Sequence record: ON470589.1
DNA length: 45,921 nucleotides
Direction: 5' to 3' (one strand)
Source of the DNA: Escherichia phage vB_EcoP-611R6
The notes below the pieces were generated by a model that saw nothing but the letters and a program-made list of their open reading frames with translations, made no database searches and was not told where the DNA came from. The translations under genes and the position numbers were made by a program. How positions within the stretch are numbered: the stretch's first letter is position 1; the number at the start of each line of letters is the position of its first letter. Below are positions 1 through 21,638 of this stretch, piece by piece.

Positions 1-1434
1 TTAACCCAGTTGCCAGAGTGCTCCATGTTGCAGCACAGCCACTCCGTGGGAGGCATAGAGCGACAGTTCCCGTTCTTCTGGCTGCGGATATATTCGGCTA
101 CTCATCACCGCCTCCCCGTCGTTAATAAATACTTCCACGGATGATGTATCGATAAATATCCTTAGGGCGAGCATGTCACCCTGCGGGAGGGGAATACTAC
201 GGTAGCCATCTAAATTCTCGTGTGGGTAATACCGCCACAAAACAAGTCGCTCAGATTGGTTATCAATATACAGCCGCATTCCAGTGCCGAGCTGTAATCC
301 GTAATGTTCGGCATCACTGTTCTTCAGCGCCCACTGCAACTGAATCTCAACTGCTTGCGCGTTTTCCTGCAAAACATATTTATTGCTGATTGTGCGGGGA
401 GAGATAGATTGATGCTGCTGGCGTAACGACTCAGCTTCGTGTACCGGGCGTTGTAGAAGTTTGCCATTGCTCTCTGATAGCTCGCGCGCCAGCGTCATGC
501 AGCCTGCCCAGCCTTCACGTTTTGAGGGCATTGGCGATTCCCACATATCCATCCAGCCGATAACAATACGCCGACCATCCTTCGCTACAAAGCTTTGTGG
601 TGCATAAAAGTCATGCCCGTTATCAAGTTCAGTAAAATGCCCGGATTGTGCAAAAAGTCGTCCTGGCGACCACATTCCGGGTATTACGCCACTTTGAAAG
701 CGATTTCGATAACTGTATCCCTCGGCATTCATTCCCTGCGGGGAAAACATCAGATAATGCTGATCGCCAAGGCTGAAAAAGTCCGGACATTCCCACATAT
801 AGCTTTCACCCGCATCAGCGTGGGCCAGTACGCGATCGAAGGTCCATTCACGCAATGAACTGCCGCGATAAAGCAGGATCTGCCCCGTGTTGCCTGGATC
901 TTTCGCCCCGACAACCATCCACCATGTGTCGGCTTCACGCCACACTTTAGGATCGCGGAAGTGCATGATGCCTTCTGGTGGAGTGAGGATCACACCCTGT
1001 TTCTCGAAATGAATACCATCCCGACTGGTAGCCAGACATTGTACTTCGCGAATTGCATCGTCATTACCTGCACCATCGAGCCAGACGTGTCCGGTGTAGA
1101 TAAGTGAGAGGACACCATTGTCATCGACAGCACTACCTGAAAAACACCCGTCTTTGTCATTCTCGTCTCCTGGCGCTAGCGCAATAGGCTCATGCTGCCA
1201 GTGGATCATATCGTCGCTGGTGGCATGTCCCCAGTGCATTGGCCCCCAGTGTTCGCTCATCGGGTGATGTTGATAAAACGCGTGATAACGATCGTTAAAC
1301 CAGATCAGGCCGTTTGGATCGTTCATCCACCCGGCAGGAGGCGCGAGGTGAAAATGGGGATAGAAAGTGTTACCTCGGCGCTCGTGAAGTTTTGCTAGTG
1401 CGTTTTGCGCCGCATGTAATCGAGATTGCGTCAT
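1..1434 (-). CDS. cscA: Sucrose-6-phosphate hydrolase (invertase, glycoside hydrolase family 32)
   Basis: ORF 1..1443 minus; GH32 motifs (WMNDPNG, FRDP, WECPD); likely start at the 4th codon (MTQSRL) giving 477 aa; stop codon at positions 1-3. Confidence 0.85.
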   Translation of the reverse strand: MTQSRLHAAQNALAKLHERRGNTFYPHFHLAPPAGWMNDPNGLIWFNDRYHAFYQHHPMSEHWGPMHWGHATSDDMIHWQHEPIALAPGDENDKDGCFSGSAVDDNGVLSLIYTGHVWLDGAGNDDAIREVQCLATSRDGIHFEKQGVILTPPEGIMHFRDPKVWREADTWWMVVGAKDPGNTGQILLYRGSSLREWTFDRVLAHADAGESYMWECPDFFSLGDQHYLMFSPQGMNAEGYSYRNRFQSGVIPGMWSPGRLFAQSGHFTELDNGHDFYAPQSFVAKDGRRIVIGWMDMWESPMPSKREGWAGCMTLARELSESNGKLLQRPVHEAESLRQQHQSISPRTISNKYVLQENAQAVEIQLQWALKNSDAEHYGLQLGTGMRLYIDNQSERLVLWRYYPHENLDGYRSIPLPQGDMLALRIFIDTSSVEVFINDGEAVMSSRIYPQPEERELSLYASHGVAVLQHGALWQLG

Positions 1435-1467
1435 TTTTATCATCCTGGTTAAGCAAATTTGGTGAAT

Positions 1468-1545
1468 TGTTAACGTTAACTTTTATAAAAATAAAGTCCC
1501 TTACTTTCATAAATGCGATGAATATCACAAATGTTAACGTTAACT
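1468..1545. promoter_or_regulatory. Divergent cscA/cscK promoter region with two identical 14-bp palindromes TGTTAACGTTAACT (1468-1481 and 1532-1545), candidate LacI-family (CscR) operators
   Basis: Exact duplicated palindrome with CG centre in the 206-bp AT-rich intergenic region between divergent genes. Confidence 0.4.
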
Positions 1546-1649
1546 ATGACGTTTTGTGATCGAATATGCATGTTTTAGTAAATCCATGACGATTTTGCGA
1601 AAAAGAGGTTTATCACTATGCGTAAGTCAGATGAATTTAAGGGAAAAAA

Positions 1650-2573
1650 ATGTCAGCCAAAGTATGGGTTTTAGGGGATGCGGTCGTAGATCTCTTGCCA
1701 GAATCAGACGGGCGGCTACTGCCTTGTCCTGGCGGCGCGCCAGCTAACGTTGCGGTGGGAATCGCCAGATTAGGCGGAACAAGTGGGTTTATAGGTCGGG
1801 TCGGTGATGATCCTTTTGGTGCGTTAATGCAAAGAACGCTGCTAACTGAGGGTGTCGATATCACGTATCTGAAGCAAGATGAATGGCACCGGACATCCAC
1901 GGTGCTTGTCGATCTGAACGATCAAGGAGAACGTTCATTTACGTTTATGGTCCGCCCCAGTGCCGATCTTTTTTTAGAGACGACAGACTTGCCCTGCTGG
2001 CGACATGCCGAATGGTTACATCTCTGTTCAATTGCGTTGTCTGCCGAGCCTTCGCGTACCAGCGCATTTACTGCGATGACGGCGATCCGGCATGCCGGAG
2101 GTTTTGTCAGCTTCGATCCCAATATTCGTGAAGATCTATGGCAAGACGAGCATTTGCTCCGCTTGTGTTTGCGGCAGGCGCTACAACTGGCGGATGTCGT
2201 CAAGCTCTCGGAAGAAGAATGGCGACTTATCAGTGGAAAAACACAGAACGATCGGGATATATGCGCCCTGGCAAAAGAGTATGAGATCGCCATGCTGTTG
2301 GTGACTAAAGGTGCAGAAGGGGTGGTGGTCTGTTATCGAGGACAAGTTCACCATTTTGCTGGAATGTCTGTGAATTGTGTCGATAGCACTGGGGCGGGAG
2401 ATGCGTTCGTTGCCGGGTTACTCACAGGTCTGTCCTCTACGGGGTTATCTACAGATGAGAGAGAAATGCGACGAATTATCGATCTCGCTCAACGTTGCGG
2501 AGCGCTTGCAGTAACAGCGAAAGGGGCAATGACAGCGCTGCCATGTCGACAAGAACTGGAAAGTGAGAAGTAA
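1650..2573 (+). CDS. cscK: Fructokinase (PfkB/ribokinase family)
   Basis: 307 aa; N-terminal VLGDAVVDL and C-terminal GAGDAF motifs of the PfkB sugar kinase family. Confidence 0.85.
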   Translation: MSAKVWVLGDAVVDLLPESDGRLLPCPGGAPANVAVGIARLGGTSGFIGRVGDDPFGALMQRTLLTEGVDITYLKQDEWHRTSTVLVDLNDQGERSFTFMVRPSADLFLETTDLPCWRHAEWLHLCSIALSAEPSRTSAFTAMTAIRHAGGFVSFDPNIREDLWQDEHLLRLCLRQALQLADVVKLSEEEWRLISGKTQNDRDICALAKEYEIAMLLVTKGAEGVVVCYRGQVHHFAGMSVNCVDSTGAGDAFVAGLLTGLSSTGLSTDEREMRRIIDLAQRCGALAVTAKGAMTALPCRQELESEK

Positions 2574-2634
2574 ACGGCGAGGCCGCTCTTATCTCTAAAT
2601 AGGACATGAATTTTTTAACGACAGGCAGGTAATT

Positions 2635-3882
2635 ATGGCACTGAATATTCCATTCAGAAATGCGTACTATCGTTTTGCATCCAGTTACTCATTTCTCTTT
2701 TTTATTTCCTGGTCGCTGTGGTGGTCGTTATACGCTATTTGGCTGAAAGGACATCTAGGATTAACAGGGACGGAATTAGGTACACTTTATTCGGTCAACC
2801 AGTTTACCAGCATTCTATTTATGATGTTCTACGGCATCGTTCAGGATAAACTCGGTCTGAAGAAACCGCTCATCTGGTGTATGAGTTTCATTCTGGTCTT
2901 GACCGGACCGTTTATGATTTACGTTTATGAACCGTTACTGCAAAGCAATTTTTCTGTAGGTCTAATTCTGGGGGCGCTCTTTTTTGGCCTGGGGTATCTG
3001 GCGGGATGCGGTTTGCTTGACAGCTTCACCGAAAAAATGGCGCGAAATTTTCATTTCGAATATGGAACAGCGCGCGCCTGGGGATCTTTTGGCTATGCTA
3101 TTGGCGCGTTCTTTGCCGGTATATTTTTTAGTATCAGTCCCCATATCAACTTCTGGTTGGTCTCGCTATTTGGCGCTGTATTTATGATGATCAACATGCG
3201 TTTTAAAGATAAGGATCACCAGTGCATAGCGGCGGATGCGGGAGGGGTAAAAAAAGAGGATTTTATCGCAGTTTTCAAGGATCGAAACTTCTGGGTTTTT
3301 GTCATATTTATTGTGGGGACGTGGTCTTTCTATAACATTTTTGATCAACAACTCTTTCCTGTCTTTTATGCAGGTTTATTCGAATCACACGATGTAGGAA
3401 CGCGCCTGTATGGTTATCTCAACTCATTCCAGGTGGTACTCGAAGCGCTGTGCATGGCGATTATTCCTTTCTTTGTGAATCGGGTAGGGCCAAAAAATGC
3501 ATTACTTATCGGTGTTGTGATTATGGCGTTGCGTATCCTTTCCTGCGCGTTGTTCGTTAACCCCTGGATTATTTCATTAGTGAAGCTGTTACATGCCATT
3601 GAGGTTCCACTTTGTGTCATATCCGTCTTCAAATACAGCGTGGCAAACTTTGATAAGCGCCTGTCGTCGACGATCTTTCTGATTGGTTTTCAAATTGCCA
3701 GTTCGCTTGGGATTGTGCTGCTTTCAACGCCGACTGGGATACTCTTTGACCACGCAGGCTACCAGACAGTTTTCTTCGCAATTTCGGGTATTGTCTGCCT
3801 GATGTTGCTATTTGGCATTTTCTTCCTGAGTAAAAAACGCGAGCAAATAGTTATGGAAACGCCTGTACCTTCAGCAATATAG
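2635..3882 (+). CDS. cscB: Sucrose:H+ symporter (MFS oligosaccharide permease, LacY-like)
   Basis: 415 aa polytopic membrane protein; 61 bp downstream of cscK on the same strand. Confidence 0.85.
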   Translation: MALNIPFRNAYYRFASSYSFLFFISWSLWWSLYAIWLKGHLGLTGTELGTLYSVNQFTSILFMMFYGIVQDKLGLKKPLIWCMSFILVLTGPFMIYVYEPLLQSNFSVGLILGALFFGLGYLAGCGLLDSFTEKMARNFHFEYGTARAWGSFGYAIGAFFAGIFFSISPHINFWLVSLFGAVFMMINMRFKDKDHQCIAADAGGVKKEDFIAVFKDRNFWVFVIFIVGTWSFYNIFDQQLFPVFYAGLFESHDVGTRLYGYLNSFQVVLEALCMAIIPFFVNRVGPKNALLIGVVIMALRILSCALFVNPWIISLVKLLHAIEVPLCVISVFKYSVANFDKRLSSTIFLIGFQIASSLGIVLLSTPTGILFDHAGYQTVFFAISGIVCLMLLFGIFFLSKKREQIVMETPVPSAI

Positions 3883-10433: not shown

Positions 10434-10600
10434 GGACGGCCTTGTTGTTTCAAAATATCCCAAAGCTTTTCGAGCAAACTTTTCATTCTTGGTTGTTTAA
10501 AGTCTGCTCCGGTTAAAATATTTTTTCGTGAATGCTGTACCGATAAAATCGGGTTGAAAGGGCGAACCGATGCCGCCCCTGCAATAGCGAACTGTTGCAT
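10430..10600 (-). CDS. cIII: CIII-like protease inhibitor (56 aa)
   Basis: Not in the ORF track; strong RBS AAGGAG; MQQFAIAG...LLEKLWDILKQQGRP resembles lambda CIII (MQYAIAG...WKRLIDILNQPGVP). Confidence 0.45.
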   Translation of the reverse strand: MQQFAIAGAASVRPFNPILSVQHSRKNILTGADFKQPRMKSLLEKLWDILKQQGRP

Positions 10601-10690
10601 AGGATGCTCCTTCTGTTTGATTGCATAACGAAAACGCCTCGAGTGAAGCGTTATTGGTATGCGGTAAAGCCGCCAACAGGCGGCTATTTG

Positions 10691-10924
10691 CTATTGATTC
10701 TTTTCAAGAACATCAATGATGTCGTCCGGGTTGTCTCCGTTGTCTTCACAAAATGCTTCGAATTCAGCCCATTTCGCGCTGATAAAATCAATTACTCTCA
10801 TTAATTCGTATTCCATATTTTTCTCCAGACCAAAAGAATGCCGCCCATATAGAGCGGCAAGACTATCAAGGAATGATTTCCAATAATCAGAACAAGTCGG
10901 CTCCTGTTTAGTTACGAGCGACAT
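10691..10924 (-). CDS. Small hypothetical protein (start ambiguous: 10924 or internal Met at 10816 with better RBS)
   Basis: Internal start MEYELMRV is preceded by GGAG plus 6 nt; a 9-bp inverted repeat lies just upstream at 10930-10957. Confidence 0.4.
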   Translation of the reverse strand: MSLVTKQEPTCSDYWKSFLDSLAALYGRHSFGLEKNMEYELMRVIDFISAKWAEFEAFCEDNGDNPDDIIDVLEKNQ

Positions 10925-10972
10925 TGCTCCGTGTATTCACTCGTTGGAATGAATACACAGTGCTTACTCGTA

Positions 10973-11443
10973 CTAATAAAATACCCAATTTTCTGTTTCT
11001 TGGTTGTGCCCAAAGTTATATTCAATATCTGGTGTTGATGTATCAATATTCTTCATCCCATCAACAAGAGTTGATACAACAGCCAAATCTTGTTTGATTC
11101 TCATTAAATGGTATTTCTTCCGGCGCAATAAACTTTCAATGGCAAGTTTCTTCGTTGGGAATGCAAAAGATCTTTCTGCATTTTTTGCTACTTTCTTAAT
11201 TGCATATCTATTTCTCCTTTGTTTCCATTCCTGTAACCACTGATTTGGTGCTGGTTTAAAATTAACAATCCAATGCGCAGGAACCAACCATGCATAATGC
11301 TCTGTCTGATGAAAAGCTATATATTGAAGTGCGAATATTTTTATCCCATCTTCTTCAACTGTCGCCTGGAATCTCCAGAAAACAGGCATTCCATCATGTT
11401 CAGTTTCTGATTCAGGAAAAGGTACGCTCCATGATTTTGTCAT
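10973..11443 (-). CDS. AT-rich hypothetical protein, first gene downstream of N
   Basis: 156 aa; visibly lower GC than its neighbours; no transmembrane segment; no recognised family. Confidence 0.55.
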   Translation of the reverse strand: MTKSWSVPFPESETEHDGMPVFWRFQATVEEDGIKIFALQYIAFHQTEHYAWLVPAHWIVNFKPAPNQWLQEWKQRRNRYAIKKVAKNAERSFAFPTKKLAIESLLRRKKYHLMRIKQDLAVVSTLVDGMKNIDTSTPDIEYNFGHNQETENWVFY

Positions 11444-11451
11444 ATCTCACC

Positions 11452-11751
11452 TCAAATAAGTGGTTTGCTGCCTAATTTCATTTTCTGGCGACCAACACAA
11501 GTCACACCCATTTCACTGCGCGGCTTGCGGTAGTAAATACGGTTCTGTTTACGCTCGACTTCTTCTGCCTTCTTGCAGCGAAGGCTTCCGAGTGATGCTG
11601 CTTTATCTGCTCTGACGCAACCAGAGAGCTTTAGCGCAATTTTTCGCGCCAGTCGCTGCTCTTGCATTGCCTGTTCACGTTGAGTCTGTCTGCGTGCTCT
11701 GCGGCGATTTCTGGCGTTATCGTCAGCCAGATATGTAATGACTACTGTCAT
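11452..11751 (-). CDS. N: Antitermination protein N-like (arginine-rich motif)
   Basis: 99 aa; N-terminal ARM DDNARNRRRARRQTQREQ; lies downstream of nutL/OL on the minus strand. Confidence 0.65.
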   Translation of the reverse strand: MTVVITYLADDNARNRRRARRQTQREQAMQEQRLARKIALKLSGCVRADKAASLGSLRCKKAEEVERKQNRIYYRKPRSEMGVTCVGRQKMKLGSKPLI

Positions 11752-11945
11752 GTTGACCTCCGATGATTGACTTTGGTGATTGGATGGCCGGTGCTGAATT
11801 CCGGCTTACTGGTTAGAGCGCCCGCACTACCAGTGACGCTGTCTTGAGGCGCAGATTGGTTACTGCTTGCCATGAGCGCTGTTTATACATTGGTCGAGCA
11901 TCAGCCTGCTCATTCATCCAATCCCAAAGCCAACTACTCTTTGGT

Positions 11946-11987
11946 TCCCGCATTTCGGCGGGACAATCCCATCAATGTTAAAGAGCC
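11946..11987 (-). promoter_or_regulatory. nutL (boxA GCTCTTTAA plus boxB hairpin)
   Basis: Minus-strand boxB TCCCGCCGAAATGCGGGA is identical to the nutR boxB. Confidence 0.5.
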
Positions 11988-12034
11988 TGCCAATCTGTTC
12001 CGTTTGGCTACCAGCGTCCTGCTGATGGCTAAAG

Positions 12035-12073
12035 AATACTGTAGGTATTTTATTGTGTAAATACCCAAGGTAT
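12035..12073. promoter_or_regulatory. OL operators: AATACTGTAGGTATT (12035-12049) and AATACCCAAGGTATT (12059-12073)
   Basis: Perfect AATAC-N5-GTATT palindromes, same half-site as the OR sites. Confidence 0.5.
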
Positions 12074-12205
12074 TTATTTTTGATGAAATAATGATAAACA
12101 AATGAATACAAAGGATATTTATTTTTTCGGTATCTGCTTGTTCAGTGCTTTTTATGCGGGATATGTGAAGTGGATCCCGATAGCTATTGCTGCCGGGATT
12201 ATGGG

Positions 12206-12574
12206 TTAGTCAGCGAAGGTTAAGACGAGAATTACCTTAATGATGTCTGCTACAACAGACACGGCCATAGATAAACCAAAGACGATCCAAGCCATAGAGA
12301 TGTCTTCACTACCATCGTATAGAGTTCCGTAATCACTGGTGTAAGGCGTAAATGTCGCGCCTTGATACAACAGGTATAAGCTTGATCCATAGAGGATAAA
12401 TGCAGATATCCCTTGTATTGCTATGACCACTAGAATCATGAAACGAGCTGATCTATGCGCCCAAGCCTGGCTTATTTTTTCTGATAGAGATTTCGCAATA
12501 AAAGCATGCGCTAAGCCGTAAATTGTTGAGATTGCCAACATCCCAAAAAAGCTTGCTATAGCGGTTCCAACCAT
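12206..12574 (-). CDS. Small integral membrane protein (3 predicted TM helices) co-transcribed with cI, at the rexB position
   Basis: 122 aa; RBS AAGGGGGA begins 2 nt after the cI stop; lies between cI and OL. Confidence 0.6.
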   Translation of the reverse strand: MVGTAIASFFGMLAISTIYGLAHAFIAKSLSEKISQAWAHRSARFMILVVIAIQGISAFILYGSSLYLLYQGATFTPYTSDYGTLYDGSEDISMAWIVFGLSMAVSVVADIIKVILVLTFAD

Positions 12575-12593
12575 AAGCGTCCCCCTTGCGTGA

Positions 12594-13310
12594 TCAAACC
12601 AGCCTTAGTTTTGTCTCAATTGCAACGCCTATAATCTTGCAGTTTCCATTGATTGGCACGAGAGGCCATGCAGGGTTAAGTCCCTTGAGGTATTTATTTC
12701 CGCCGTCGATTATCAGCTTCTTGAATGTTGCTTCGTTAGAGTCAGAAAGTTTTGCTATGACCAGGCTGCCGTTGATCGCCTCCCTTCCGGTATCGAAAAG
12801 AACGAATGTTCCCTCTGGAATGCTTAACCCAACCGGTGCCGTCATTGAATCACCTTCCACTTTAAGCCAGAACGCATTGCCTTGAATATGCGCGTCAGAC
12901 TCAAGCCAAACATCTATGTCTTTAATGGTGTATGGTTCGCATGCTTCACACCACGAGCCAGCCTGGATACTGCTTAACACCGGATACCTCTTTCCTGCTC
13001 TGTATTCCCCTGCATACCTTACGTTGGCATCGCTCTTAAGGCTTTCTGCCTGTTCTGCAACCTTGGCAGCAATTGACTGGCTAAAATCAGCAATTGAGAC
13101 TTGCAACAAACGTGCAAAACCAGATGCGACCTCAACGTTTAGCGCGTTTCTGCCATTAAGATAATGCCCTACCGCTCCTTGGGTGATACCCAGTTCATCA
13201 GCGATTGAGTATTGGGTTATTCCCAATTCTTTCTTTTTTGACTCATACAAAGCCTTAAGCCGCTTAGCGTCTTCGAGCTGTTCTGTCGTCAGTGATTTTT
13301 TATTTTCCAT
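12594..13310 (-). CDS. cI: CI repressor (HTH_XRE N-terminus, LexA-like S24 autocleavage domain)
   Basis: 238 aa; close in sequence and length to lambda CI (LTTEQLEDAKRLKALYE...; ...FWLKVEGDSMTAP...). Confidence 0.9.
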   Translation of the reverse strand: MENKKSLTTEQLEDAKRLKALYESKKKELGITQYSIADELGITQGAVGHYLNGRNALNVEVASGFARLLQVSIADFSQSIAAKVAEQAESLKSDANVRYAGEYRAGKRYPVLSSIQAGSWCEACEPYTIKDIDVWLESDAHIQGNAFWLKVEGDSMTAPVGLSIPEGTFVLFDTGREAINGSLVIAKLSDSNEATFKKLIIDGGNKYLKGLNPAWPLVPINGNCKIIGVAIETKLRLV

Positions 13311-13345
13311 AGCTTAATTCTAATAGCTAAGGTACTTAAACTAAA

Positions 13346-13385
13346 AATACCCTGAGTATTGATTGCTTTGAATACCTGTAGTATT
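13346..13385. promoter_or_regulatory. OR operators: AATACCCTGAGTATT (13346-13360) and AATACCTGTAGTATT (13371-13385)
   Basis: AATAC-N5-GTATT palindromes between divergent cI and cro. Confidence 0.55.
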
Positions 13386-13410
13386 CTTTGTTCATGGTTA
13401 ATAACGGAGA

Positions 13411-13611
13411 GTGCATATGATTCGAATGACACTTGCCGATTACGCCAAAATCCATGGACAGGCTAAAGCAGCCAGTGACTTTGGTGTAATCCAGTGCGCT
13501 ATCAGCAAGGCCATTCTGGCAGGCCGTAACATTATGGTTACGGTAAAGCCTGATGGCAGTGTGATTGGAGAGGAAGTTCGTCCTTTCCCAAGCAACAAGA
13601 AAAACAAATAG
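13411..13611 (+). CDS. cro: Cro repressor
   Basis: 66 aa; strong similarity to lambda Cro (TL.DYA...GQ.K.A.D.GV.Q.AI.KAI.AGR.I...DGSV..EEV.PFPSNKK). Confidence 0.8.
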
Positions 13612-13618
13612 TAACACC

Positions 13619-13662
13619 GCTCTTTAACAGTCATGGTCCTCATTCCCGCCGAAATGCGGGAA
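13619..13662 (+). promoter_or_regulatory. nutR (boxA CGCTCTTTAA 13619-13628; boxB TCCCGCCGAAATGCGGGA 13645-13662)
   Basis: Canonical boxA followed 16 nt later by a 5-bp stem hairpin with an A-rich loop. Confidence 0.55.
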
Positions 13663-13719
13663 TACAACGCGCATCAGTTGGTGCGCATAACTTCTTATTT
13701 GTTAAGGAAATACTTACAT

Positions 13720-13998
13720 ATGCAACTTACAAGTACTCGCAAGAAAGCGAATGCAATTACAAGCAACATCCTAAATCGAATTGCTGTACGTGGTCAGCGA
13801 AAGGTTGCCGACGCGTTAGGGGTTAATGAATCGCAAATTTCGCGATGGAAAGACAGCTTCATCCCCAAAATGGGAATGCTTCTGGCTGTTCTTGAATGGG
13901 GTGTTGAAGACGAGGAGTTGGCGGAACTGGCTAAGCAAGTAGCCAGAATGCTGACAAAAGAAAAAGCCCCGAAGAACGGCGAATTCTTCGAGGCCTAA
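13720..13998 (+). CDS. cII: CII transcriptional activator
   Basis: Start taken at the internal Met (MQLTSTRKK); SQISRWK...MLLAVLEWGV motif shared with lambda CII. Confidence 0.75.
   Translation: MQLTSTRKKANAITSNILNRIAVRGQRKVADALGVNESQISRWKDSFIPKMGMLLAVLEWGVEDEELAELAKQVARMLTKEKAPKNGEFFEA
13953..13990 (-). terminator. Minus-strand rho-independent terminator inside the cII 3' end (OOP-like antisense RNA terminator)
   Basis: 7-bp stem CGAAGAA / TTCTTCG, followed on the minus strand by GGGGCTTTTTCTTTTG. Confidence 0.45.
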
Positions 13999-14032
13999 TG
14001 TAGAAAGACTGGATCAATCCACGGGAGTAATT

Positions 14033-14194
14033 ATGACAAAACGTCGTAAGAAATACCAGGAAAAAGAAGAGATTCGACACCCTGATTCACCTGAGGGATT
14101 AGTGGTAGCCGCAGCAAATAACAGGGCGTTCGCAGAGCGCCTTGTTGGTGTTTACAGACTAGCCAAAGCAGGAGTGAAACATGGGCGTCGTTAA
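14033..14194 (+). CDS. Small basic ORF (53 aa) between cII and O
   Basis: Not in the ORF track; RBS GGGAG 6 nt upstream of the ATG; overlaps the O start. Confidence 0.3.
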   Translation: MTKRRKKYQEKEEIRHPDSPEGLVVAAANNRAFAERLVGVYRLAKAGVKHGRR

Positions 14195-15002
14195 GTTAGC
14201 TGATTACAGGCCTCAACTGGAGGTCTTGGAGCATCGCGTGGCAGATACCGAAGATGGTTTCATGCGCGTTGCTAACGAGATTACCGACAGTCTGCTGATG
14301 GCTGATTTAACCGTCCGGCAGATGAAGGTGATGCTCGCTATCATGCGCAAGACATACGGATTCAATAAGCCGATGGATCGACTCACAAACACGCAGATAG
14401 CAGCCATGACAGGTATTCATCACACTCATGTTTGCGCTGCCAAGCGCCAGCTTATTGAGCGTAAATTCCTCATTGCTGATGGCGTGAAAATCGGAGTGAA
14501 CAAGGTAGTTTCGCAGTGGATTAGCCAGGATAGCTTAACATTAGCTAAAACAGCTAATAAAACATTAGCCAAGTCGGCTAATGGGTATAAGCCAAGTCAG
14601 CTAAACACAAAAGACAATATACAAAAGACAATAAATACAAATACCCCCTTACCCCCTAACGGGGGTGGCGATGGGCAGGTTAAACCTGAACGTCGCAAGG
14701 CAGAACGAATCGACTACGAATCCTTCCTGAACGCCTACAACACCGAAGTCGGTGACAGACTGCCACACGCTGTTGCGGTCAACGAGAAACGCAAACGCCG
14801 CCTGAAGAAAATCATCCCGCAACTGAAAACGCCAAACGTGGACGGTTTCAGAGCGTATGTCAGGGCGTTTGTGCATCAGGCCAAGCCGTTTTACTTCGGA
14901 GACAACGACACTGGCTGGACGGCAGATTTTGATTACCTGCTGAGGGAAGACTCGTTAACGGGAGTTCGGGAAGGGAAGTTTGCAGACAGGGGGATTGCAT
15001 GA
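14181..15002 (+). CDS. O: Replication initiator O-like protein
   Basis: 273 aa; N-terminal domain similar to lambda O (DLT.RQ.KV.LAI.RKTYG.NKPMDR.T..Q). Confidence 0.8.
14539..14640. repeat. Candidate replication origin inside O: three iterons (TTAGC-N7-GCTAA type) followed by an AT-rich tract
   Basis: Iterons at about 14541-14557, 14566-14582 and 14589-14605, then an A/T-rich run to 14640. Confidence 0.4.
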
Positions 15003-20390: not shown

Positions 20391-20714
20391 ATGAAGATGC
20401 CAGAAAAACATGACCTGTTAGCCGCCATTCTCGCGGCAAAGGAACAAGGCATCGGGGCAATCCTTGCGTTTGCAATGGCGTACCTTCGCGGCAGATACAA
20501 TGGCGGTGCGTTTACAAAAACAGTAATCGACGCAACGATGTGCGCCATTATCGCCTGGTTCATTCGTGACCTTCTCGACTTCGCCGGACTAAGTAGCAAT
20601 CTCGCTTATATAACGAGCGTGTTCATCGGCTACATCGGTACTGACTCGATTGGTTCGCTTATCAAACGCTTCGCTGCTAAAAAAGCCGGAGTAGAAGATG
20701 GTGGAAATCAATAA
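20391..20714 (+). CDS. S: Class I holin, lambda S type (dual start M1-K2-M3)
   Basis: 107 aa, essentially identical to lambda S. Confidence 0.9.
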
Positions 20715-21174
20715 TCAACGTAAGGCGTTCCTCGATATGCTGGCGTGGTCAGAGGGAACTGATAACGGACGGCAGAAAACCAGAAATCATGGTTATGACG
20801 TCATTGTAGGCGGAGAGCTATTTACTGATTACTCCGATCACCCTCGCAAACTTGTCACGCTAAACCCCAAACTCAAATCAACAGCCGCCGGGCGCTACCA
20901 GCTTCTTTCCCGTTGGTGGGATGCCTACCGCAAGCAGCTTGGCCTGAAAGACTTCTCTCCGAAAAGCCAGGACGCTGTGGCACTGCAGCAGATTAAGGAG
21001 CGTGGCGCTTTACCGATGATTGACCGCGGTGATATTCGTCAGGCAATTGACCGTTGCAGCAATATCTGGGCTTCACTGCCGGGCGCTGGTTATGGTCAGT
21101 TCGAGCATAAGGCTGACAGCCTAATTGCAAAATTCAAAGAAGCAGGCGGAACGGTCAGAGAGATTGATGTATGA
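20698..21174 (+). CDS. R: Endolysin, lambda R-type lytic transglycosylase
   Basis: 158 aa, near-identical to lambda R. Confidence 0.9.
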
Positions 21175-21638
21175 GCAGAGTCACCGCGATTATCTCCGCT
21201 CTGGTTATCTGCATCATCGTCTGCCTGTCATGGGCGGTTAATCATTACCGTGATAACGCCATGACCTACAAAGAGCAGCGAGATAAAAAAGTCAGTGAGC
21301 TGAAGCAGGCGACCGCCACCATTACTCACATGCAGCAGCGCCAGCGTTCTGCTGATGCACTCGATGCTAAATACACGAAGGAGTTAGCTGATGCGAAAGC
21401 TGAAAATGATGCTCTTCGGCGCAAGCTTGATAATGGTGGTCGGGTGTTCGTCAAAGGAAAATGCCATATGCCATCCTCAGCCGAAACCTCCAGCGCCTCC
21501 GGCATGGGCAATGATGCCACCGTCGAACTCTCTCCAGTTGCTGGACGAAACGTTCTCGGTGTCCGGGGCGGAATTATCCGCGACCAAACAGCACTGAGAA
21601 CGCTTCAGGAATACATCAGGACGCAATGCCTTCGATGA
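21171..21638 (+). CDS. Rz: Spanin inner-membrane subunit Rz
   Basis: 155 aa; N-terminal TM helix and coiled-coil; lambda Rz-like. Confidence 0.85.
21391..21597 (+). CDS. Rz1: Spanin outer-membrane lipoprotein Rz1, embedded in Rz in the +1 frame
   Basis: Lipobox VVGC and Pro-rich mature region. Confidence 0.7.

What the first reader, a model, noticed from the sequence alone, without database searches (positions are those of the whole stretch)
12206..12574. Membrane protein co-transcribed with cI in the immunity region
A 122-aa protein with three predicted TM helices starts 19 bp after cI, with its RBS (AAGGGGGA) 2 nt after the cI stop. It lies between cI and OL, the slot occupied by rexA-rexB in lambda. 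A gene here would be expressed from pRM in the lysogen. There is no RexA partner, so if it excludes phage it would act alone or with host factors.
Basis: partly seen in the sequence, partly recalled or inferred. Interest (0 to 1): 0.6.

Follow-up and report, generated by a model that had tools for sequence, protein, structure and literature searches.

The report
hkaS: membrane protein gene after cI
The ORF is real: it is hkaS, a conserved small inner-membrane protein gene placed just after the repressor gene in prophages with phage HK620's immunity region, annotated since 2001 but of unknown function, so it is an ordinary yet testable candidate for a prophage gene that protects its host from other phages.

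Summary
A 122-codon ORF (12206-12574, minus strand) starts 19 nt after cI. It has its own Shine-Dalgarno sequence, which lies 6 nt after the cI stop, not 2. It encodes three hydrophobic helices and lies between cI and the OL operators and pL.

It is hkaS of phage HK620 (96.7% identical, product "unknown"), PHROG 6534 (unknown function). It occurs in 15 phage records and 146 of 5,426 complete E. coli genomes.

It is a real gene:
- Always 122 codons, with dN/dS about 0.14-0.2.
- The ribosome-binding site is kept in lineages down to 52% identity.
- It always sits directly after the same cI C-terminal domain and is followed by a hairpin. In one lineage that hairpin is a canonical terminator.

It is an orphan. 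An exhaustive profile search of 1.84 billion proteins found only the family itself. It shows no relation to RexB, SieA, Hex, the prophage's holin or the ColE1 immunity protein, and no informative fold match.

Expression from pRM is inferred, not shown. The function is unknown. My best guess is a stand-alone membrane-level defence against superinfecting phages: entry block about 0.3, abortive infection about 0.22. Non-defence roles remain open. It is a modestly interesting new family of a known kind.

The parts
12206..12574 (-). hkaS: 122-aa predicted three-helix inner-membrane protein (predicted N-terminus out, C-terminus in)
   Evidence: ORF. phrog_6534, E 5.9e-79. 96.7% identical to HK620 hkaS. 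Hydropathy. AF2 pLDDT 92.3. dN/dS 0.14-0.2.
12575..12593 (-). 19-nt cI-hkaS spacer with Shine-Dalgarno AAGGGGGA (12580-12587), 5 nt before the ATG
   Evidence: Sequence. An SD is kept in all lineages despite sequence change: AAGGGG, CAAGGAC, AAAGGAC, AAAGGAT.
12594..13310 (-). cI repressor (HTH_3 plus Peptidase_S24), first cistron of the operon
   Evidence: Pfam and PHROG. 99.6% identical to HK620 cI.
13317..13345 (-). Inferred pRM: -35 TTTAGT (13345-13340), 17-nt spacer, -10 TAGAAT (13322-13317), 6 nt before the cI ATG, so the cI message would be nearly leaderless
   Evidence: Read directly from the sequence. It is below the threshold of the scan. The geometry relative to OR2 and OR3 resembles lambda pRM. 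This is inference.
13321..13386 (.). OR operators: 13321-13337, 13345-13361, 13370-13386
   Evidence: Pattern search. They correspond to OR3, OR2 and OR1 of the HK620 record.
12174..12199 (-). RNA hairpin 6 nt after the hkaS stop; probable 3' end or stabiliser of the cI-hkaS transcript
   Evidence: MFE hairpin, z -2.0. A hairpin of different sequence sits at the same place in L009, L003 and L007 (z -2.6 to -3.5). In L043 it is a canonical terminator with a U6 tail.
12034..12120 (.). OL operators: 12034-12050, 12059-12075, 12104-12120
   Evidence: Pattern search. All three are conserved in diverged loci. The first two equal OL1 and OL2 of HK620.
12033..12061 (-). pL (TTTACA, 17 nt, TATTCT)
   Evidence: Promoter scan. 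It coincides with pL of the HK620 record after alignment.
11452..11751 (-). N-like antiterminator, first gene of the early-left operon; marks the far side of the slot
   Evidence: phrog_271, E 1.6e-36.
13417..13611 (+). cro; right-hand end of the immunity module
   Evidence: ORF. HK620 and mEpX2 cro start at the corresponding ATG.

Best explanation
Shown
- hkaS is a real, translated accessory gene. It encodes a 122-aa integral inner-membrane protein with three transmembrane helices.
- The predicted topology is N-terminus in the periplasm, a basic cytoplasmic loop (28-44), an acidic and aromatic periplasmic loop with a beta-hairpin (71-93), and the C-terminus at the cytoplasmic face.

Inferred from anatomy and comparison
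- It is the second cistron of the cI operon. It would therefore be made from pRM in the lysogen, and from pRE during establishment. The transcript would end at the hairpin just after the gene.

Inferred from the slot, the protein type and precedents; not shown
- It acts alone in the membrane to protect the lysogen against superinfecting heteroimmune phages.
- The most likely mode is interference with genome entry at the cytoplasmic membrane. It would do this by intramembrane or membrane-face contacts with the incoming phage's ejection or tape-measure conduit, or with the host inner-membrane factor that conduit uses. P22 SieA, T4 Imm, HK97 gp15 and Sie2009 are reported to work this way.
For: Gene reality
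- Full-length PHROG match.
- Invariant length of 122 codons. dN/dS 0.14-0.2 with similar dS to cI (0.69 against 0.80), meaning one co-diverging module.
- Only conservative polymorphism across hundreds of contigs.

Operon
- 17-20 nt spacing with a retained SD in all 12 loci compared, and likewise in L043.
- No promoter-like or terminator-like site between the genes on that strand.
- A hairpin follows the stop in all lineages, and it is a canonical terminator in L043.
- The HK620 record puts tIMM after hkaS.

Membrane topology
- Hydropathy.
- Loop 1 carries 3-5 K/R and 0-1 D/E in every lineage. Loop 2 carries 0-1 K/R and 2-4 D/E.
- AF2 pLDDT 92.3.

Accessory status
- Close cI relatives carry other cargo or nothing in the same slot.
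- The gene moves with the immunity module among podoviruses, siphoviruses and Stx phages.

Precedents
- cI-operon cargo that excludes phages: rexAB, stk, hex (PMC3564112); bstA (PMC8585504).
- SieA is a three-TM inner-membrane protein that alone blocks DNA injection, and its conserved motif is also predicted on the cytoplasmic side (PMC10883804).
- The periplasmic hairpin is among the most variable parts of HkaS (mean pairwise identity 0.39; two transmembrane half-segments score lower, 0.25-0.30).
Against: - I found no experimental data of any kind on this gene. Full-text searches found nothing.
- No homology to any known exclusion or defence protein: PADLOC has no hit, SieA 0.3%, RexB 0.7%.
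- The cI-linked cargo characterised so far in lambdoid phages (Rex, Stk, BstA, Nun) acts after DNA entry. From my own knowledge, entry blockers are usually linked to virion genes; the SieA paper places sieA between genes 16 and 9.
- The best-conserved parts of HkaS are at the cytoplasmic face: QAWxHRxARF (36-45) and DxxKxIxVLTFAD (110-122).
- The slot also carries non-defence cargo: a PagP gene is annotated in the repressor region of phage Huey.
Confidence: 0.3

Rival explanations
1. Abortive infection by membrane permeabilisation, a one-protein analogue of RexB or a holin. HkaS would sit inert in the membrane as an oligomer. On a cue from an infecting phage, such as a phage protein binding its cytoplasmic face or membrane perturbation, it would open and collapse the proton-motive force, killing the cell before progeny are made.
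For: - It sits in the same slot as rexAB, stk and bstA, which the cited papers describe as aborting infection.
- Class I holin-like size and predicted topology: three TM helices, N-out, C-in.
- TM1 carries a conserved G3xxx(A/G)7xxxG11 motif. From my own knowledge this resembles the glycine zippers common in oligomeric channel formers.
- Invariant polar residues lie within the helices: Q54, D110, K113.
- The conserved cytoplasmic-face motifs could be the trigger site.
Against: - No sensor partner and no soluble domain.
- No homology to RexB or to the prophage's own holin.
- It has three helices. From my own knowledge RexB has four; I did not check this here.
- It lacks the charged C-terminal tail that, from my own knowledge, holins carry.
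- A pore former made constitutively from a good SD would need tight restraint.
- AF2 gives a compact monomeric three-helix bundle. Oligomers were not modelled.
Confidence: 0.22
2. Host-fitness lysogenic conversion unrelated to phages. Examples would be intramembrane immunity to a pore-forming colicin or bacteriocin, tolerance to membrane stress or antimicrobial peptides, or modulation of a host transporter.
For: - Its size and predicted three-TM architecture match the 113-aa ColE1 immunity ORF. From my own knowledge these proteins have three TM helices and neutralise pore-forming colicins by helix-helix contact.
- The slot carries very diverse cargo.
- Phage Huey has a PagP gene annotated in its repressor region.
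- The family is spread over Escherichia, Salmonella, Enterobacter, Klebsiella aerogenes, Hafnia and Buttiauxella, as expected for a generally useful trait.
Against: - No homology to the ColE1 immunity protein (hhalign 0.1%). Pfam reports no colicin-immunity or other family above threshold.
- Most characterised cargo of this slot is anti-phage.
- The family is found only inside lambdoid immunity modules, never free in chromosomes or on plasmids.
Confidence: 0.18
3. A regulator of the prophage's own life cycle, Hex-like in effect. HkaS would stabilise lysogeny or tune induction and the lysis-lysogeny decision. It could, for example, act on a membrane protease such as FtsH/HflKC, which controls CII and CIII, or indirectly limit RecA-dependent cleavage of cI.
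For: - 434 Hex, in the same PRM-cI-x operon position, lowers spontaneous induction by blocking RecA-stimulated repressor autocleavage (PMC3564112).
- hkaS stays linked to the cI C-terminal (S24 cleavage and oligomerisation) domain even where the DNA-binding domain has been swapped. In L043 the N-terminal domain is about 25% identical, the C-terminal domain 78-90% and HkaS 54%.
- The conserved cytoplasmic-face motifs suggest a conserved intracellular partner.
Against: - Linkage to the C-terminal domain is expected from adjacency alone.
- cI relatives 64-76% identical over the whole protein lack hkaS, so the switch does not need it.
- HkaS is almost entirely membrane-embedded, with about 17 plus 10 cytoplasmic residues.
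- It is unrelated to Hex, whose sequence has no such three-helix hydrophobic pattern.
Confidence: 0.12
4. The ORF is a chance or decaying reading frame with no function.
For: A few database entries are frameshifted, truncated or read-through variants: P0005, P0007 and P0009 (frameshifted N-terminus), P0004 and P0008 (internal deletions), P0026 (140 aa).
Against: - Purifying selection.
- Invariant length over lineages whose synonymous sites are saturated.
- A retained SD.
- All 146 E. coli genome matches cover at least 80% of the gene at 95% identity or more.
- A confident AF2 fold.
Confidence: 0.02

Closest known systems
hkaS of coliphage HK620 (AF335538, AAK28867.1) = PHROG 6534
   Same: The same gene: 96.7% identity over 120 of 122 residues. 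It has the same position between cI and OL, and the same flanking cI (99.6%) and operators.
   Different: Nothing of substance differs. The record and the PHROG both say 'unknown', so membership gives no function.
Lambda RexB (with RexA)
   Same: It sits in the same slot between cI and OL, in the repressor operon. Both are small polytopic inner-membrane proteins expressed with cI.
   Different: No sequence relation (hhalign probability 0.7%). HkaS has three predicted helices and 122 aa; RexB has 144 aa and, from my own knowledge, four helices. There is no RexA-like sensor gene.
P22 SieA superinfection exclusion protein
   Same: A prophage-expressed inner-membrane protein predicted to have three TM segments and acting alone. 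Its conserved motif is predicted on the cytoplasmic side (PMC10883804). This is the best functional analogue for an entry block.
   Different: No sequence relation (hhalign 0.3%). The motif FxRYPxEAxxFNK is absent. sieA lies between genes 16 and 9 next to the ejection-protein genes and has its own promoter. SieA is 162-164 aa.
Phage 434 Hex
   Same: The second cistron of a PRM-cI-x operon. Co-transcription was shown by RT-PCR. It has accessory roles in exclusion of P22 and prophage stabilisation (PMC3564112).
   Different: Unrelated sequence. Hex has a single N-terminal hydrophobic stretch followed by a polar sequence, not three hydrophobic helices. The paper reports that it acts on RecA-stimulated repressor autocleavage.
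BstA (BTP1) and Stk (933W): cI-linked abortive-infection proteins
   Same: The gene lies directly downstream of cI and presumably shares its promoter. The cI-N interval is described as a hotspot of mosaic diversity (PMC8585504; PMC3564112).
   Different: BstA is reported to localise to sites of phage DNA replication, and Stk is a tyrosine kinase. Neither resembles a small polytopic membrane protein, and HkaS has no PADLOC hit.
ColE1-type pore-forming colicin immunity proteins
   Same: About 113 aa and hydrophobic. From my own knowledge they are three-TM inner-membrane proteins that work alone by intramembrane helix-helix recognition.
   Different: No sequence relation (hhalign 0.1%). They are encoded on plasmids next to the colicin gene.

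Membership tests
HkaS / PHROG 6534 | Full-length sequence match to the family profile | tested here: met
   phrog_6534, E 5.9e-79, residues 1-122 on profile positions 1-122. 96.7-98.3% identity to hkaS in 14 of 15 phage records and 91.7% in the fifteenth.
HkaS / PHROG 6534 | Position directly downstream of a lambdoid cI and upstream of OL, pL and N | tested here: met
   Every locus examined has this arrangement: the window, L001-L012 and L043.
Repressor-operon accessory (moron) gene expressed in the lysogen | Same strand as cI, with no promoter or terminator in between and a terminator after it | tested here: met
   19-nt gap with an SD. No promoter-like or terminator-like site on that strand between the genes. 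A hairpin follows the stop in all lineages, canonical in L043.
Repressor-operon accessory (moron) gene expressed in the lysogen | Transcript or protein detected in lysogens | not testable with these tools
   No expression data were available. It is only inferred from the anatomy and from precedents.
Lambda RexB | Sequence homology to RexB | tested here: not met
   hhalign probability 0.7%. RexB tblastn hits in the phage collection (20 records) do not include any of the hkaS phages listed.
Lambda RexB | Adjacent RexA partner gene | tested here: not met
   Nothing lies between cI and hkaS (19 nt). There is no further ORF before OL apart from a non-conserved 35-aa antisense ORF.
P22 SieA | Sequence homology and the conserved motif FxRYPxEAxxFNK | tested here: not met
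   hhalign probability 0.3%. The motif described in PMC10883804 is absent from the HkaS alignment.
P22 SieA | Location between the gene 16 and gene 9 homologues of a P22-like prophage | tested here: not met
   hkaS is in the immunity region. The gene 16-tailspike interval of this prophage (36353-39622) holds other genes.
P22 SieA | Blocks DNA injection (functional definition) | not testable with these tools
   Needs plating, K+ efflux and DNA-entry assays.
Class I holin | Three TM helices with N-out, C-in topology | tested here: met
   Hydropathy and the charge distribution of the loops. This is a prediction only.
Class I holin | Homology to a holin family, a place in a lysis cassette, and a charged C-terminal tail | tested here: not met
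   No Pfam holin hit. hhalign 0.2% to the prophage's own holin at 20391-20714. The gene is in the immunity region. The C-terminus is the hydrophobic ILVLTFAD.
434 Hex | Sequence homology | tested here: not met
   Hex has no three-helix hydrophobic pattern. HkaS tblastn of all phage records found only the 15 hkaS phages, not 434.
Known anti-phage defence systems (PADLOC-DB v2) | A match to any defence-protein model | tested here: not met
   No family at E of 1 or better.
ColE1-type colicin immunity proteins | Sequence homology | tested here: not met
   hhalign probability 0.1%. No Pfam hit.

The most novel reading that the evidence does not exclude
HkaS would be a new kind of one-component membrane immunity protein. 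One version is a 'Rex without RexA': it both senses phage entry and collapses the membrane potential. The other is an intramembrane neutraliser that binds the pore-forming ejection, tape-measure or holin proteins of incoming phages, in the way colicin immunity proteins bind pore-forming colicins. In either case it would be carried as part of an exchangeable unit made of the cI C-terminal domain plus cargo.
Probability: 0.15. Interest if true: 0.6.

Novelty: new member of a known kind. Interest (0 to 1): 0.3.

Why it matters
The cI-N interval of lambdoid prophages is a recognised hotspot for lysogen-expressed cargo such as rexAB, stk, nun, hex and bstA. HkaS is an uncharacterised orphan family in that slot.

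- **Reach.** It is present in about 2.7% of complete E. coli genomes, including Stx2c-converting phages. It also occurs in Salmonella, Enterobacter, Klebsiella aerogenes, Hafnia and Buttiauxella prophages.
- **Tractability.** It is a single 122-aa gene available in phages that grow on K-12 or its relatives (mEpX2, HK630, HK140, HK620).
- **Payoff if it protects against phages.** It would add a new single-gene, membrane-level defence family. It would also help explain phage-typing and phage-therapy failures in strains carrying this immunity type.
- **Payoff if it tunes induction.** That would bear on Stx-phage stability.

Even so, finding a small membrane protein after cI would not surprise a specialist.

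Tried and rejected
**Remote homology**
- Pfam gave only sub-threshold noise (Cation_ATPase_C at 19 bits against a cut-off of 27). NCBIfam and PADLOC gave no hit.
- The word-indexed search of 5.8 billion proteins found 12 clusters, all the family itself.
- An exhaustive HMM search of 1.84 billion representatives found 2 hits, both the family.
- A PDB sequence search found nothing.

**Fold comparison** (confident AF2 model)
- BFVD: no hit with E below 0.4.
- PDB by Foldseek: nothing with E below 0.8.
- The afdb50 library was unavailable.

**Direct profile comparisons.** RexB, SieA, the prophage's own holin and the ColE1 immunity protein were all negative.

**Other leads**
- A 35-aa hydrophobic ORF (12102-12209, plus strand) convergent with hkaS was considered as a type-I-toxin-like partner. 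It has no SD and is not conserved in L003-L005 or L007, so I rejected it.
- TM1 was considered as a cleavable signal peptide because of AHA at residues 22-24. There is no basic n-region and the AXA is not conserved, so I rejected it.
- Rfam found no RNA family in 10500-14500.

**Literature**
- Searches for hkaS, HK620p19, accession numbers and mEpX2 found nothing on the gene.
- The original HK620 paper (J Mol Biol 2001) is not held.

**Obligatory co-evolution with cI.** I rejected this because cI relatives at 64-76% identity lack hkaS.
Full report
**1. The observation**

The window carries a 122-codon ORF at 12206-12574 on the minus strand. The gene upstream on the same strand (12594-13310) is a 238-aa cI repressor with HTH_3 and Peptidase_S24 domains.

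The two genes are 19 nt apart. The coding strand reads TGA TCACGC AAGGGGGA CGCTT ATG.

Kyte-Doolittle averages over 19 residues give three hydrophobic segments, at about residues 1-27, 43-68 and 94-121.

The slot is as described:
- Six operator-like sites matching AAATACCNNNGGTATTT cluster at 12034-12120 (OL) and 13321-13386 (OR). The window has 11 matches against 1.9 expected by chance.
- A pL-like promoter lies at 12061-12033.
- An N-like antiterminator follows at 11452-11751.
- No RexA-like gene is present.

**2. Identity**

The protein matches PHROG 6534 (unknown function) over its full length, E 5.9e-79. It is 96.7% identical to hkaS of coliphage HK620 (AAK28867.1, product "unknown").

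It is also present in HK630, HK140, mEpX2, HF4s, HZ41, phi296, phi367 and two Stx2c-converting phages. That makes 15 phage records.

The HK620 record annotates OL1-3, pL, nutL and a tIMM terminator ("termination of cI transcript") downstream of hkaS. The depositors therefore already treated it as part of the cI transcript. The region from the hkaS stop to pL aligns almost base for base with HK620 and mEpX2.

The gene occurs in 146 of 5,426 complete E. coli genomes. It is always chromosomal, the match always covers at least 80% of the gene, and the annotation is "hypothetical protein" in every row listed. One of these genomes, CFSAN061763, is 100% identical. All public sources call it hypothetical.

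Full-text searches for the gene name, locus tag and accessions found no paper that discusses it. The original HK620 paper is not held.

**3. It is a real, selected gene in a fixed position**

Homologues down to 52% identity come from Salmonella, Enterobacter, Klebsiella aerogenes, Hafnia and metagenomes.

In 9 fetched loci, plus HK620, mEpX2 and CFSAN061763, the order is always the same:
- cro, divergent from cI;
- cI;
- a 17-20 nt gap containing an SD;
- hkaS, always exactly 122 codons;
- 350-490 bp;
- N.

dN/dS for hkaS is 0.14-0.2. Synonymous sites are saturated in the deep comparisons. In the window-L009 comparison, dS for hkaS (0.69) is close to that of cI (0.80). The two genes therefore diverged together. 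HkaS accumulates amino-acid changes 4-7 times faster: 52-60% identity where cI keeps 86-88%.

Polymorphism within clusters is conservative, for example V/I, F/L and M/I. A few database entries are frameshifted, truncated or read through.

**4. Operon anatomy**

No promoter-like or terminator-like site lies between cI and hkaS on their strand.

Reading the sequence, I find a pRM-like arrangement that the scan does not report because it is below its threshold:
- -35 TTTAGT (13345-13340), abutting OR2;
- a 17-nt spacer;
- -10 TAGAAT (13322-13317), inside OR3 and 6 nt before the cI ATG.

This would give a nearly leaderless cI message, as in lambda. It is my inference.

Six nucleotides after the hkaS stop there is a stable hairpin at 12199-12174 (z -2.0). 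Hairpins of unrelated sequence occupy the same place in three diverged lineages (z -2.6 to -3.5). In the Buttiauxella locus L043 the hairpin is a canonical intrinsic terminator, AACCCGGA...UCCGGGUU followed by U6.

These features together support a two-gene cI-hkaS transcript from pRM, and from pRE during establishment. No transcript data were available, so this step remains an inference.

**5. The protein**

AlphaFold2, run on only 7 sequences, gives a confident model (pLDDT 92.3, pTM 0.79). It has helices at 2-29, 31-38 (short), 41-73 and 89-121, with a small beta-hairpin at about 78-86.

The charge distribution sets the predicted topology:
- Loop 1 (26-46) carries 3-5 K/R and 0-1 D/E in every lineage.
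- Loop 2 (71-95) carries 0-1 K/R and 2-4 D/E.
- This predicts the N-terminus in the periplasm, loop 1 in the cytoplasm, loop 2 in the periplasm and the C-terminus at the cytoplasmic face.

The most conserved parts lie at the cytoplasmic face:
- QAWxHRxARF at 36-45;
- DxxKxIxVLTFAD at 110-122;
- YLLY...TF.PY at the periplasmic end of TM2.

The periplasmic hairpin (79-95) and two transmembrane half-segments are the most variable parts.

Other conserved features:
- Invariant polar residues sit within the helices: Q54, D110 and K113.
- TM1 carries a G3xxx(A/G)7xxxG11 motif. I read this, from general knowledge, as a helix-packing or oligomerisation face.
- TM1 is not a signal peptide. It has no basic n-region, and the AHA at 22-24 is not conserved.

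**6. No relatives and no informative fold**

- An exhaustive profile search of 1.84 billion representative proteins found only the family itself.
- Pfam gave no hit above threshold. NCBIfam and PADLOC gave no hit at E of 1 or better, and the PDB sequence search found nothing at E of 10 or better.
- Profile comparisons were negative against lambda RexB (0.7%), P22 SieA (0.3%), the prophage's own holin (0.2%) and the ColE1 immunity protein (0.1%).
- 434 Hex, in the equivalent position, has an unrelated sequence with a single N-terminal hydrophobic stretch.

**7. Accessory cargo, not part of the switch**

All 15 phage records with at least 99% identical cI carry hkaS. Their virions are of different kinds: Lederbergvirus podoviruses, Hendrixvirinae and lambda-like siphoviruses, and Stx phages. 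The gene therefore travels with the immunity module, not with the virion genes.

A scan of species-representative genomes with cI returned 80 loci at 40-76% identity. Only one of them, L043, has hkaS. Among the 34 closest of these loci, the others have nothing in the slot or very different cargo, soluble or membrane, from 40 to 409 aa.

In L043 the cI N-terminal DNA-binding domain is unrelated (about 25% identity). Its C-terminal domain is 78-90% identical, and hkaS follows it at 54% identity. The exchangeable unit therefore appears to be the cI C-terminal domain plus hkaS plus the terminator. Adjacency is enough to explain that linkage.

**8. What it most likely does**

The literature describes this interval as a hotspot for lysogen-expressed cargo:
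- rexAB, stk and hex (PMC3564112);
- bstA, with explicit discussion of the cI-N hotspot (PMC8585504);
- P22 SieA shows that a small three-TM inner-membrane protein can by itself block DNA injection. Its conserved motif is also predicted on the cytoplasmic side (PMC10883804).

On that basis I rank the explanations as follows:

| Explanation | Confidence |
|---|---|
| Stand-alone block of genome entry at the inner membrane | 0.30 |
| Abortive infection by membrane permeabilisation | 0.22 |
| Non-phage host-fitness trait, such as colicin-type intramembrane immunity | 0.18 |
| Hex-like tuning of prophage stability | 0.12 |
| No function | 0.02 |
| Something not listed | remainder |

Two points argue against an entry block. 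The characterised cI-linked cargo of lambdoid phages acts after entry. The best-conserved surfaces of HkaS are cytoplasmic.

Three points argue against abortive infection. There is no sensor. There is no soluble domain. A constitutively expressed pore former would be risky for the cell.

None of these readings can be separated further without experiments.

**9. Verdict**

The operon inference is well supported by anatomy and comparison. The exclusion hypothesis is reasonable but untested.

The gene is not new. It is hkaS, annotated in 2001. It is not a RexB. It is an orphan family in a well-known cargo slot, so I class it as a new, uncharacterised member of a known kind. It is of modest interest and easy to test.

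**Context of the window**

The window holds a P22-like prophage:
- ejection-protein gene homologues, a P63C-domain protein and a tailspike-like gene;
- a lysis cassette at 20391-21638;
- integration at argW, with tRNA-Arg(CCT) at 44839-44913 and the integrase at 43520-44713;
- flanking host genes: a sucrose-utilisation-like cluster (invertase, PfkB kinase, LacY-family permease) at 1-3882 and a formate/nitrite-transporter-family gene at 44989-45921.

Noticed in passing
window 12102-12209 (+): A 35-aa hydrophobic ORF (MNTKDIYFFGICLFSAFYAGYVKWIPIAIAAGIMG) runs convergent to hkaS and overlaps its stop by 4 nt. It resembles a type-I-toxin peptide. It has no SD, starts inside the third OL operator, and is absent or different in the diverged loci L003-L005, L007 and L009. 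It is probably spurious.
   Followed up: yes
window 12104-12120, compared with 12081-12097: A third operator-like site, GAATACAAAGGATATTT (AAATATCCTTTGTATTC on the minus strand), is conserved in all diverged lineages, about 45 bp from OL2. The HK620 record instead annotates OL3 at the equivalent of 12081-12097, a poor match to the operator consensus. It also places 'tIMM' over the conserved site. The structure that looks like a terminator is the hairpin at 12174-12199. The HK620 annotation of OL3 and tIMM may need revision.
   Followed up: partly
window ~11829-11913: This window has about 85 bp in the nutL-to-N leader that HK620 and mEpX2 lack (alignment columns 304-388). The Stx2c phages seem to share it, since they cover more of the query (93% against 87%). 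The segment begins and ends with inverted sequence (ATGAGC...GCTCAT).
   Followed up: no
window 36353-36757 (-): A 134-aa protein with one hydrophobic segment and a coiled-coil-like tail (phrog_5962, unknown function) sits just after the gene 16 homologue. In P22 that position holds sieA. It may be another lysogen-expressed exclusion candidate.
   Followed up: partly
window 41539-42666 (+): An Acyl_transf_3 / O-antigen acetyltransferase gene lies directly downstream of the tailspike gene. It is a likely serotype-converting, receptor-modifying moron.
   Followed up: partly
window 10800-11450 (-): An AT-rich stretch (34-37% GC against 43-50% nearby) holds a 156-aa ORF just after N (10973-11443; phrog_1636, unknown function). 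No Pfam (none above threshold), NCBIfam or significant PADLOC match. Its composition is moron-like.
   Followed up: partly
window 1-3882 and 43520-45921: The prophage is integrated at argW (tRNA-Arg CCT at 44839-44913, next to the integrase). It lies between a sucrose-utilisation-like cluster (GH32 invertase, PfkB kinase, LacY-family permease) and a formate/nitrite-transporter-family gene.
   Followed up: partly
L043 3001-4100 (uncultured Buttiauxella sp.): Here cI has an unrelated N-terminal DNA-binding domain (about 25% identity), but its C-terminal domain is 78-90% identical and is followed by hkaS and a canonical terminator. This points to a recombination joint inside the cI linker that moves the C-terminal domain and its cargo between immunity specificities.
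   Followed up: partly
L013 1620-1701 (phage 434 record OL657227): This record annotates OL1-3 operator features inside the cI coding sequence, which looks like an annotation slip. It also labels the gene after cI as 'repressor protection protein' (Hex).
   Followed up: no
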